From Promethearchaeota archaeon (GTDB lineage: Archaea; Asgardarchaeota; Hermodarchaeia; Hermodarchaeales; Hermodarchaeaceae), in contig JBHLPH010000003.1 in the NCBI GenBank assembly GCA_048939625.1, positions 72,353 to 136,352 on the forward strand: DNA of 64,000 nucleotides, written 5' to 3'. Position numbers and translations under genes: made by a program. The notes beneath the pieces were generated by a model, which did no database searches, was not told the origin of the DNA, and saw only the letters and a program-made list of their open reading frames with translations. This document shows positions 17,501 to 59,068 of this stretch, piece after piece (the first letter of the stretch is position 1; every line of letters begins with the position of its first letter).

Positions 17501-17657
17501 GATGATTGCAGCCTCTTTGTGTGGTTTGCCAGTTGAAGGGGGATTCTTTAAGGTTTACGTTCCTCAATAGGAGAGGTATAGCTTCCCTTTCTAAATTTGC
17601 GCATTGACCAGAACAATTTTAGCTGTTTTGAGATATTTACGAAAAGGGGTTCTGTTA

Positions 17658-18032
17658 ATGTCGGCTACAGCCAAGAATCTTCAAGCCCTCCTTCGCCAAA
17701 TGGAGAGTACGACACCGGGCATCGAAGCAAGCGCTATTGTCACGGCTCAAGGGTTACCAATTGTAGCAGCGATGCCTCAAACCGTCAATGAAGCCATCGT
17801 CGCTGCAATGACAGCGGCGTTATTGGGTGTTGCAGAGCGCGCGTTAACAGAGATACCACGTGGGAAACTTATGCAGATTACTGTGGAAGCAGAAAATGGT
17901 TATATTATTTTGAAAGGTGCAGGAGAAAATGCAATCCTCACTTCTTTAGTAAAGAAAAGTGCGAATCTTGGAATGATATTCTTGGTTATGAAGCGATATA
18001 GTAGCCAAATCGAATCGATCCTCCAAGCCTAA
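17658..18032 (+). CDS. Roadblock/LC7 (MglB-like) protein
   Basis: GIEASAIVTAQGLPI, VAAMTAALL, ANLGMIF. Confidence 0.9.
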   Translation: MSATAKNLQALLRQMESTTPGIEASAIVTAQGLPIVAAMPQTVNEAIVAAMTAALLGVAERALTEIPRGKLMQITVEAENGYIILKGAGENAILTSLVKKSANLGMIFLVMKRYSSQIESILQA

Positions 18033-18088
18033 CAAACGATTCGAGTAATTGTTGGAGCTTTTTTTGATTTGGCGATTGACAAAAAGGT

Positions 18089-18160
18089 GGCGGCTCTAGT
18101 CCGCCCGTCGTTCACTTCATCTTGGTATCAGTGCGATCAGGTTTCCTCTTCATTGCCGCC
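18089..18160 (-). ncRNA. Box C/D guide sRNA; D guide antisense to SSU rRNA helix 44 (predicted Cm1402-equivalent)
   Basis: Minus strand reads GGCGGC a ATGAAGA(C) ggaaacctgatcgca CTGA(D') tacc AAGATGA(C') agtgaACGACGGGCGGa CTAGA(D variant) GCCGCC, then a T-run. It has a 6-bp terminal stem, and the guide is complementary to the conserved CCGCCCGUC. Confidence 0.8.
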
Positions 18161-18182: not shown

Positions 18183-18797
18183 TTACTTAAGGGTTGTGAG
18201 CAGATTATCGATTTGCTGTTGAATTTGGTTTTGCACTTCACGAATCGAGCACGTTGCATCAATTATCGTGAAACCATTTTCTTGTGCCCTTTCAATGAAG
18301 ATTTGTCTTACCTTCTCGAGGAAGGTGACATATTCGAATTTTTCTTTTGGTTTTGGTCTTCTCTTTCGTGCTAAAGCAGTTTTGGGGGCAATATCGAGCA
18401 CGAAGGTGATGGTTGGAGTGAGGGCATACCGATTTAGGTTCTGCACCCATTCGCGATCAAGTCCGGAAGAACATTGATAGGCAAAGGATGATTCAACATA
18501 GCGATCCGTGATGACGATTTGTCCTTTATCCAGAGCCGGCTGAATTTTGTTCAATGTATTATCAATGCGATCAGCTGCAAAAAGTAAGGCATCAATTGCA
18601 GGCGATACCGTTGTGTCTTGTAATATTTGCCGTATCAGCTTTCCAATTCGTTCATCTGTTGGTTCATGGGTTTCGACTACTTCGAACCCTTTTTTTCTCA
18701 GCCATTTGCTCAGTAATTTTGTGTGAGTGGTTGTACCACTTCCATCGATTCCTTCTAGCGCAATGAAAAGTCCTTGTTGCATTTCAAGCACACTCAA
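18183..18797 (-). CDS. tmk: Thymidylate kinase
   Basis: FIALEGIDGSGTTT, LLFAADR, TDRYVESSFAYQ. Confidence 0.95.
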   Translation of the reverse strand: MSVLEMQQGLFIALEGIDGSGTTTHTKLLSKWLRKKGFEVVETHEPTDERIGKLIRQILQDTTVSPAIDALLFAADRIDNTLNKIQPALDKGQIVITDRYVESSFAYQCSSGLDREWVQNLNRYALTPTITFVLDIAPKTALARKRRPKPKEKFEYVTFLEKVRQIFIERAQENGFTIIDATCSIREVQNQIQQQIDNLLTTLK

Positions 18798-58956: not shown

Positions 58957-59068
58957 GCCGGGATAGCCAAGTGGTTACGGCGCGGGCCTTGAGAGATGCC
59001 TTTAAGTATCATCCAAGGTAGCCTGTGACTTTTGGGTCGCAAGGGTTCGAATCCCTTTCCCGGCGCCA
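58957..59068 (+). tRNA. trnS: tRNA-Ser(UGA) with canonical 37/38 intron (58994-59019), long variable arm, G73, CCA encoded
   Basis: GCCGGGA...CGGGC CT TGA G^intron^A GCCTG...GGTTCGAATCC...TCCCGGC G CCA. Strict BHB: CTTG/CAAG helix with AGA and GTA bulges. Confidence 0.95.

What the first reader, a model, noticed from the sequence alone, without database searches (positions are those of the whole stretch)
18089..18160. Unannotated box C/D sRNA predicted to methylate the decoding-centre C1402
Seen (minus strand): terminal stem GGCGGC/GCCGCC, C box AUGAAGA, D' CUGA, C' AAGAUGA, variant D box CUAGA, D guide ACGACGGGCGG. Known: SSU rRNA has the near-universal CCGCCCGUC (E. coli 1399-1407). Counting +5 from the D-box C lands on C1402, which is 2'-O-methylated by the protein RsmI in bacteria and by snR70 (yeast Cm1639) or SNORD43 (human) in eukaryotes. 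The guide also implies G at 1408, as in eukaryotes. The 15-16-nt spacers and closing stem are longer than typical archaeal sRNAs. It sits 22 nt after the tmk stop, suggesting processing from an mRNA 3' end. The D' guide (target UGCGAUCAGGUUUCC) is unassigned. If UAGA is the real D box, the target shifts to G1401.
Basis: partly seen in the sequence, partly recalled or inferred. Interest (0 to 1): 0.72.

Follow-up and report, generated by a model that had tools for sequence, protein, structure and literature searches.

The report
Asgard guide RNA for ribosome decoding site
This 72-base stretch is a real, conserved small guide RNA of an Asgard (Hermodarchaeota) archaeon. It most likely directs a sugar methylation of 16S rRNA at the decoding-site base C1402, a site already known to be modified in bacteria, eukaryotes and some other archaea, so it is a new member of a familiar kind.

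Summary
Window 18089-18160 (minus strand) has a 6-bp GC terminal stem, a C box (AUGAAGA), D' (CUGA), a C' box, a D-like box (CUAGA) and a guide core, CGACGGGCGG.

- **Target.** The guide core matches CCGCCCGUCG (E. coli 1399-1408) perfectly in every Asgard 16S examined, including two of the same genus. The MAG itself has no 16S.
- **Conservation.** A covariance model finds the element in 17 of 19 Hermodarchaeia genomes, always 20-22 nt after tmk. Weaker homologues occur in three other Asgard families. It is 94% identical among close species, against 38-48% for its intergenic flanks.
- **Site.** Homologues with an ordinary 4-nt D box (CUGA or CCGA) and a 12-nt spacer put N+5 on C1402. C-box position 5 and D-box position 2 covary (A-U, G-C, G.U). 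So the extra A in CUAGA is an insertion, and C1402 is favoured over G1401.
- **D' spacer.** No target was found, and its 3' end pairs inside the RNA. The RNA is probably a single guide.
- **Transcription.** An invariant CTTAAGTAA over the tmk stop suggests the RNA has its own promoter.
- **Machinery.** Fibrillarin, Nop5 and L7Ae are encoded in the genome.

Cm1402-equivalent methylation is already listed for Pyrococcus and was measured in Nanoarchaeum. This scan had already reached the same reading on another genome. No expression or methylation data could be obtained.

The parts
18183..18797 (-). tmk (thymidylate kinase) gene, upstream neighbour
   Evidence: 204-aa ORF, PF02223 E 3.3e-51. Relatives of 78-85% identity lie in MAGs titled Candidatus Hermodarchaeota or Promethearchaeota.
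18183..18191 (-). CTTAAGTAA: last two tmk codons plus stop. Probable TATA-like promoter element for the sRNA (inferred).
   Evidence: Invariant in the 15 homologues from two genera aligned, at 20-22 nt from the RNA 5' end, while the adjacent codons and the spacer vary. G011, found later, reads TTTAAGTAA.
18155..18160 (-). 5' strand of the terminal stem, GGCGGC
   Evidence: Pairs with 18089-18094. All cells are paired across the homologues. G-C becomes G.U in genus g2, and A-U in G018.
18147..18153 (-). C box AUGAAGA (consensus RUGAUGA; position 5 is A)
   Evidence: Position 5 covaries with D-box position 2.
18132..18146 (-). D' spacer GGAAACCUGAUCGCA, with no assigned target. Its last 2-3 bases pair with the bases after C'.
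   Evidence: No convincing complement in relatives' rRNAs or in the genome. The 3' half varies among close species. Internal pairing is shown.
18128..18131 (-). D' box CUGA
   Evidence: Conserved in genus g1.
18121..18127 (-). Loop between D' and C' (UACCAAG)
   Evidence: Variable in sequence, 6-7 nt long.
18114..18120 (-). C' box AUGAAGU (revised register)
   Evidence: This register is shared by genus g1, genus g2 (AUGACGC) and f2 (AUGAUAC). It forms G.A, A.G, A-U, G-C, U-A and G-C pairs with CACUGA.
18100..18113 (-). D spacer GAACGACGGGCGGA. The guide core CGACGGGCGG is at 18101-18110.
   Evidence: Forms 10 Watson-Crick pairs with 16S CCGCCCGUCG (1399-1408), flanked by mismatches on both sides in all Hermodarchaeia except G011 and G018, which pair over 9 bp, and in f14.
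18095..18099 (-). D box CUAGA, that is CUGA with an inserted A
   Evidence: Homologues read CUGA (g2, f14, f2), CCGA (f3) or CCAGA (g1b/c).
18089..18094 (-). 3' strand of the terminal stem, GCCGCC
18080..18088 (-). ACCUUUUUG: oligo-U tract, probable transcription stop
   Evidence: T-rich tract within 2-8 nt of the stem in most homologues.

Best explanation
This is a box C/D small RNA gene of a Hermodarchaeota (Asgard) archaeon.

**Proposed mechanism.**
- The RNA folds so that its 6-bp terminal stem brings the C box (AUGAAGA) and the D box (CU[A]GA) together into a kink-turn bound by L7Ae. An internal C'/D' kink-loop, extended by a short stem, forms the second protein site.
- Nop5 and fibrillarin assemble on both sites.
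- About 12 free bases before the D box remain single-stranded (ACGACGGGCGGA). They form a 10-bp duplex with 16S rRNA 1399-1408. This places the ribose of C1402, paired with the fifth base upstream of the D box, in the fibrillarin active site and yields Cm1402 at the P-site/decoding centre.
- The D' spacer probably guides nothing.
- The gene is probably transcribed from its own TATA-like element, which overlaps the tmk stop, and ends at an oligo-U tract.

**Shown:** motifs, conservation, complementarity, covariation, and presence of the protein machinery.

**Inferred:** expression, RNP assembly, methylation and the exact nucleotide modified.
For: **Anatomy.**

**Conservation.**
- Found in 17 of 19 genomes of the class.
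- Homologues occur in families f14, f3 and f2.
- The element is far more conserved than tmk or its flanks.

**Guide and target.**
- The guide core is invariant in all Hermodarchaeia homologues except G011 and G018, which carry G-to-A at guide position 2, and in f14.
- It matches CCGCCCGUCG in 16S of same-genus G005 and G007, of genus g2, and of other Asgard lineages.
- N+5 falls on C1402 in 11 of 12 representatives. Position 11 is always paired and position 12 never is, which fits the 10-bp duplex in a 12-nt spacer.

**Reading of the D box.**
- C-box position 5 and D-box position 2 read A-U (g1a, f2), G-C (g1b/c, f3), G.U (g2) and U.U (f14).
- The same A5-U2 pairing appears in the C'/D' motif of the same RNA.

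**Strand.** G.U and A-U variants in the terminal stem fit only the minus strand.

**Machinery.**
- Fibrillarin and Nop5 are adjacent on contig C12, and L7Ae is on C19.
- No RsmH or RsmI homologue was found in the 88%-complete MAG.

**Resemblance to known families.**
- Rfam gives sub-threshold, whole-length hits only to C/D families.
- The Rfam SNORD43 consensus guide reads UUGACGGGCGgAC.
Against:
- The MAG has no 16S or 23S rRNA, so the target is read from relatives.
- The D box is not a canonical CUGA. If the kink-turn uses UAGA, the target shifts to G1401.
- One same-genus homologue (G011) has GGGCGAAA-CCAGA, which shifts the register by one and shortens the duplex to 9 bp.
- Covariation rests on few independent lineages: 62 of 500 shuffles reach the observed score.
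- The minimum-free-energy fold of the naked RNA is no better than that of shuffled sequence (z -0.5). This is usual for C/D RNAs.
Confidence: 0.75

Rival explanations
1. It is the same C/D sRNA, but in this genus the kink-turn uses UAGA/CAGA as the D box (3b.3n = A.A or G.A). The fifth base upstream then pairs with G1401, and the product is Gm1401.
For: - The GA dinucleotide next to the terminal stem fixes the sheared pairs. A linear reading of the four preceding bases gives UAGA.
- The G011 variant shifts the register anyway.
- N. equitans data hint at a modified G1401 (PMC5389701).
Against: - It needs three different targets within one RNA family.
- It breaks the otherwise constant pairing of C-box position 5 with D-box position 2.
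- It makes the free spacer 13 nt instead of 12.
Confidence: 0.12
2. The RNA binds 16S 1399-1408 mainly as a folding or processing helper rather than as a methylation guide. For example, it could hold the start of helix 44 open, or flank the 3' bulge of the 31-nt mini-intron that ends one base before the duplex in Hermodarchaeia pre-16S.
For: - The guide duplex starts at C1399. This is the second base of the exon that follows a BHB-type mini-intron whose outer helix is missing.
- Pyrobaculum sR25 pairs with the same site but carries a mismatch at the target base (PMC4644070).
Against: - The RNA is present where the 16S has no intron (f2 G019: L107 and L001).
- No such guide was found in G029, whose 16S has the intron.
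- The geometry is exactly that of a methylating guide.
Confidence: 0.06
3. It is a 3'-UTR or terminator structure of tmk (GC hairpin plus a T run), with C/D-like motifs present by chance.
For: - The terminator scan flags GGCGG-ACUAGAG-CCGCC followed by ACCUUUUUG.
- The element always follows tmk in Hermodarchaeia.
Against: - The boxes and a 10-nt rRNA complement are conserved while the flanks drift.
- Homologues in f14, f3 and f2 lie in other sequence contexts, which were not annotated here.
- Archaeal termination does not need a hairpin (my own knowledge).
Confidence: 0.03

Closest known systems
Archaeal box C/D sRNAs (L7Ae-Nop5-fibrillarin RNPs; sets of Pyrococcus, Sulfolobus, Pyrobaculum; PMC4644070)
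   Same: - C, D', C' and D order, with a terminal stem.
- About 12 free guide bases forming a 10-bp duplex, and the N+5 rule.
- The protein machinery is encoded in the genome.
   Different: - 72 nt long with a 6-bp GC stem.
- The C box has A or G at position 5, forming a Watson-Crick or wobble pair with D-box position 2.
- The D box carries an inserted A in this genus.
- The C'/D' motif is extended by a stem, and only one guide appears functional.
Pyrobaculum calidifontis sR25 and Thermoproteus tenax sR35 (predicted 16S C1389*, equal to E. coli C1402)
   Same: For P. calidifontis sR25, whose sequence was read here, the D guide is CGACGGACGGA-CUGA against CGACGGGCGGA-CUGA in the Asgard homologues, with the same register. 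T. tenax sR35 is listed only with the same predicted site.
   Different: - The Pyrobaculum guide has A opposite the target C, a mismatch flagged by the authors. The Asgard guide pairs perfectly.
- In Pyrobaculum the other guide has its own 16S target (C1349).
Eukaryotic SNORD43/U43, yeast snR70, Arabidopsis AtU43 (18S Cm1703, Cm1639, Cm1645)
   Same: - Same rRNA nucleotide.
- Identical guide core GACGGGCGGAC in the Rfam SNORD43 consensus.
   Different: - In SNORD43 the guide follows the C box (the D' side); here it precedes the D box.
- The Rfam score is 13.8 bits against a cut-off of 45.
- Identity of the guide is forced by the shared target, so homology cannot be shown.
Archaeal Cm1402 equivalents already reported: P. 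abyssi Cm1369 (tabulated in PMC11542601) and N. equitans Cm1402 by RiboMeth-seq (PMC5389701)
   Same: 2'-O-methylation of the same decoding-site cytidine in archaea.
   Different: - They come from other phyla.
- I did not see the responsible sRNA sequences.
- No Asgard case turned up in the papers I could search.
Bacterial RsmI (2'-O) and RsmH (N4) acting on C1402
   Same: Same nucleotide and same chemistry as RsmI (PMC2831307).
   Different: - These are stand-alone protein enzymes, not RNA-guided.
- No homologue was found in this MAG.

Membership tests
Archaeal box C/D sRNA | C box RUGAUGA near the 5' end | tested here: met
   AUGAAGA matches 6 of 7 positions, with the G-A of the sheared pairs intact. 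It is conserved as AUGA[A/G]GA across homologues.
Archaeal box C/D sRNA | D box CUGA next to the 3' end | tested here: inconclusive
   Here it reads CUAGA, with the GA abutting the stem and one extra A. Homologues have CUGA or CCGA at the same place. Whether L7Ae accepts the inserted A was not tested.
Archaeal box C/D sRNA | Terminal pairing that brings C and D together | tested here: met
   A 6-bp stem with 100% of cells paired, and G-C, G.U and A-U variants.
Archaeal box C/D sRNA | Internal D' and C' boxes | tested here: met
   CUGA and AUGAAGU separated by a 7-nt loop. The non-canonical stem is extended and covaries.
Archaeal box C/D sRNA | Guide of at least 9-10 nt complementary to a stable RNA, with the target at N+5 | tested here: met
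   10 bp with 16S 1399-1408 of same-genus relatives, and N+5 = C1402. The genome's own 16S is not assembled.
Archaeal box C/D sRNA | Fibrillarin, Nop5 and L7Ae encoded by the host | tested here: met
   PF01269 E 2e-89, PF01798 E 5e-65, PF01248 E 5e-27.
Archaeal box C/D sRNA | Discrete small transcript, RNP formation, and Nm at the predicted base | not testable with these tools
No reads were laid.
SNORD43 / snR70 (Rfam RF00221) | Score at or above the family's gathering threshold | tested here: not met
   13.8 bits against 45. Only the guide and one box align.
SNORD43 / snR70 (Rfam RF00221) | Guide for the C1402-equivalent cytidine of SSU rRNA | tested here: met
   Same guide core GACGGGCGGAC. 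This is a shared function, not proof of descent.

The most novel reading that the evidence does not exclude
This Asgard-wide RNA family is seen in Hermodarchaeia and at least three other families. It always carries the same 10-bp guide and the unusual paired C5:D2 kink-turn. It could be the direct evolutionary counterpart of eukaryotic U43/snR70. If so, it would be one of very few individual guide RNAs traceable across the archaea-eukaryote boundary, and the single-guide, stem-closed architecture seen here would be an early step towards snoRNA-like design.
Probability: 0.15. Interest if true: 0.6.

Novelty: new member of a known kind. Interest (0 to 1): 0.3.

Why it matters
- **Conserved site.** It adds Asgard archaea to the lineages that methylate the P-site cytidine C1402. 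The same mark is made by a protein in bacteria and by guide RNAs in eukaryotes and some archaea. This supports the view that it is one of the oldest and most conserved rRNA modifications.
- **Annotation.** It gives a concrete, conserved RNA family for annotating Asgard genomes (model R1).
- **Kink-turn variant.** It offers a natural kink-turn variant for biochemists: D box CU-A-GA with a covarying Watson-Crick pair at the 3b.3n position.
- **Overall.** Otherwise it is an ordinary guide RNA.

Tried and rejected
- **Own rRNA.** The MAG has none. I used same-genus pieces instead (L007, L043, L044, L040-L042).
- **D' guide target.**
  - No convincing complement exists in 16S or 23S of relatives. 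The best runs are 8-10 nt with G.U pairs.
  - Only chance-level 10-12-mers occur in the genome.
  - tRNAs were not checked separately.
- **Genome-wide C/D scan.** Two of my own scripts were too crude. They gave 2 and 44 candidates, mostly inside coding DNA. I dropped the attempt to describe the typical sRNA of this genome.
- **Exact guide-plus-D-box pattern in 400 Asgard genomes.**
  - Only Hermodarchaeia and one f14 genome were real.
  - Hits in G168, G256, G336, G334, G033, G008:C71, G346, G362 and G364 lack boxes and look like chance.
  - The covariance model was needed to find the f2 and f3 homologues.
- **Coupling with the 16S mini-intron.** Rejected as a general rule. The RNA occurs without the intron (f2), and the intron occurs without the RNA (G029).
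- **Pyrococcus paper.** PMC7758197 was checked for a C1402-equivalent site and says nothing on it.
- **Naked-RNA fold.** It is not better than shuffled sequence. I did not count this against the reading, because C/D RNAs fold around proteins.
- repeats the analysis from references.

Full report
**What is there.**

On the minus strand, window 18160 to 18089 reads GGCGGC-A-AUGAAGA-GGAAACCUGAUCGCA-CUGA-UACCAAG-AUGAAGU-GAACGACGGGCGGA-CUAGA-GCCGCC, followed by ACCUUUUUG.
- The stretch lies in a 150-nt gap between two convergent genes. One is tmk (18183-18797, minus strand; PF02223, E 3e-51). The other is a Roadblock/LC7 gene (17604-18032, plus strand).
- No ORF of 40 aa or more covers it.
- Rfam gives only sub-threshold hits, and nearly all are box C/D families that align from end to end (SNORD103, snoZ169, sR1, sR17, sR43). 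A partial hit to SNORD43 rests on the guide.

**Organism and machinery.**

- The window is part of an 88%-complete, 2.3-Mb MAG.
- Close Tmk relatives (78-85% identity) lie in MAGs titled Candidatus Hermodarchaeota or Promethearchaeota. This agrees with earlier notes of this scan.
- The genome encodes an adjacent Nop5-fibrillarin pair and L7Ae.
- It has no detectable RsmH or RsmI.
- It has no assembled 16S or 23S rRNA, so all target statements rest on relatives.

**Conservation.**

- BLAST found the element in most same-genus genomes and in the sister genus.
- A covariance model built from 13 copies finds it in 17 of the 19 genomes of the class. The two misses are 77% and 83% complete.
- Among close species the element is 94% identical. 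The adjacent tmk coding DNA is 68% identical, and the flanking intergenic DNA is 38-48%.
- The model also finds weaker homologues in two further Asgard families: f3 at E 2e-4 to 5e-4, and f2 at E 4e-3 to 2e-2. A pattern search found one in f14.
- Other pattern hits were chance matches without boxes.

**Target.**

- The ten bases CGACGGGCGG are invariant in all Hermodarchaeia copies except G011 and G018, which have A for the last G, and in f14.
- They are the exact complement of CCGCCCGUCG in every Asgard 16S I fetched. These include two from the same genus (G005, G007) and one from the sister genus. This is E. coli 1399-1408.
- The base on each side of the duplex is a mismatch in all these lineages.
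- In representatives of five families, position 11 upstream of the D box is always paired and position 12 never is.
- This fits the standard archaeal arrangement of a 10-bp duplex inside a 12-nt spacer. That arrangement is my own knowledge of the Sulfolobus RNP structures.

**Which nucleotide.**

- In genus g2, f14 and f2 the D box is a plain CUGA. In f3 it is CCGA.
- In g2, f14 and f2 the spacer is 12 nt (13 in G017), and N+5 falls on C1402 in all four groups.
- In the window's genus the box reads CUAGA or CCAGA.
- Two facts argue that this is CUGA/CCGA with an inserted A rather than a box shifted by one:
  - C-box position 5 and D-box position 2 always form a standard or familiar pair: A-U (this genome, f2), G-C (g1b/c, f3), G.U (g2), U.U (f14).
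  - The internal C'/D' motif of the same RNA shows the same A5-U2 and G6-C1 pairs without any extra base.
- With this reading, 11 of 12 representatives aim at C1402.
- The exception, G011, has GGGCGAAA-CCAGA. This shifts the register to G1401 and shortens the duplex.
- The statistical power is low because few lineages are independent. I put C1402 at about three in four and G1401 at about one in eight.

**Second guide.**

- The D' spacer has no convincing target in relatives' rRNA or in the genome.
- Its 3' half differs among close species, and it is replaced altogether in subgroups g1b/c.
- Its last 2-5 bases pair with the bases that follow C'. The covariation is A-U, C-G, and GGG/CCC.
- Because those are the positions a working guide must keep free, the RNA is probably a single guide.
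- The same stem absorbs the first bases of the D spacer and leaves about 12 free bases.

**Transcription.**

- The nine bases CTTAAGTAA (Leu-Lys-stop of tmk) are identical in the 15 homologues from two genera aligned. One later-found homologue, G011, reads TTTAAGTAA.
- They sit 20-22 nt from the RNA start, while the preceding codons and the intervening spacer change freely.
- Homologues in other gene contexts also have A/T-rich boxes 25-30 nt upstream.
- I infer a TATA-like promoter that overlaps the tmk stop. Processing from a tmk read-through transcript is not excluded.
- A T-rich tract follows the 3' stem in most homologues.

**What is already known.**

- Bacteria make m4Cm1402 with RsmH and RsmI (PMC2831307).
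- Yeast Cm1639 (snR70), human Cm1703 and Arabidopsis Cm1645 (AtU43) are the equivalents. The same table lists P. abyssi Cm1369 (PMC11542601).
- RiboMeth-seq found Cm1402 in Nanoarchaeum equitans (PMC5389701).
- Dennis et al. predicted 16S C1389* (E. coli 1402) for Pyrobaculum sR25 and T. tenax sR35. The Pyrobaculum guide, CGACGGACGGA-CUGA, differs from the Asgard one only by an A opposite the target base (PMC4644070).
- I found no paper on Asgard C/D sRNAs in the library.
- A follow-up agent of this scan reached the same reading on a homologous stretch of another genome.

**A neighbour worth noting.**

- In the 16S of Hermodarchaeia relatives, a 31-33-nt insert lies between C1397 and A1398, five bases before the target. 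The same insert occurs in one genome of another family.
- It has the shape of a splicing-endonuclease intron: a 4-bp helix GCAC/GUGU, 3-nt bulges ACA and AGA, and a covarying inner stem. It lacks an outer helix.
- The guide duplex would abut its 3' bulge.
- However, the RNA occurs where there is no intron (f2), and the intron occurs where no such guide was found (G029). I therefore see no evidence of coupling.

**Verdict.**

It is a genuine, conserved box C/D guide RNA, most likely for Cm1402, and a new member of a known kind. Its modest peculiarities are the inserted A in the D box, the paired C5:D2 position, the single guide, and the promoter over the tmk stop. Expression and methylation remain untested.

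Noticed in passing
L007:794-845 (-), L043:1159-1212 (+), L004:1637-1688 (-), L006:3769-3822 (+): A 31-33-nt BHB-type mini-intron lies in the 16S rRNA of Hermodarchaeia relatives and one other Asgard family, between E. coli C1397 and A1398 in the decoding centre. It has central helix GCAC/GUGU, bulges ACA and AGA/AAA, a covarying inner stem and no outer helix. It is absent from four other Asgard 16S genes (L001, L003, L005, L075).
   Followed up: partly
L043:1245-1256: The tip of 16S helix 44 in same-genus genome G007 holds a second 12-nt site, UCCGCUCGUCGU. It is complementary to the D guide with one G.U pair and lies about 45 nt after the main site. It is not present in G005, so it may be chance.
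   Followed up: no
L007 (G005:C71:619-4212): The same-genus 16S gene spans about 3.6 kb for a 1.5-kb rRNA, with several large inserts between conserved blocks. These are presumably introns.
   Followed up: no
L026:1453-1524, L058:1450-1521 (genus g2 homologues): The D' spacer of the sister genus contains UACCGCGG, the complement of the 16S 530-loop CCGCGGUA. That is only 8 nt, and the following D' box is degenerate (GUAA/GUGA). It may be a second decoding-centre guide in that genus.
   Followed up: partly
genome contig C83:353-406 (-), outside the window: Another C/D-like candidate reads GGAUUC-AUGAGGA-15 nt-CAGA-CAUAG-CUGAUGG-11 nt-CUGA-GGAU. Its D guide has 9 nt complementary to relatives' 23S. 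It uses the same AUGAGGA C-box variant.
   Followed up: no
window 58957-59065 (+): A tRNA match 109 nt long against a 71-position model (Rfam, 48 bits), so it probably contains an intron.
   Followed up: no
window 17604-18032 (+): A Roadblock/LC7-domain gene (PF03259, E 4e-14) converges on the sRNA locus.
   Followed up: no
PMC4644070 supplement (P. calidifontis sR25): The Pyrobaculum guide to the same site carries A opposite C1402. All Asgard homologues seen here pair G with it. It is unclear why a guide would keep a mismatch exactly at its target.
   Followed up: no
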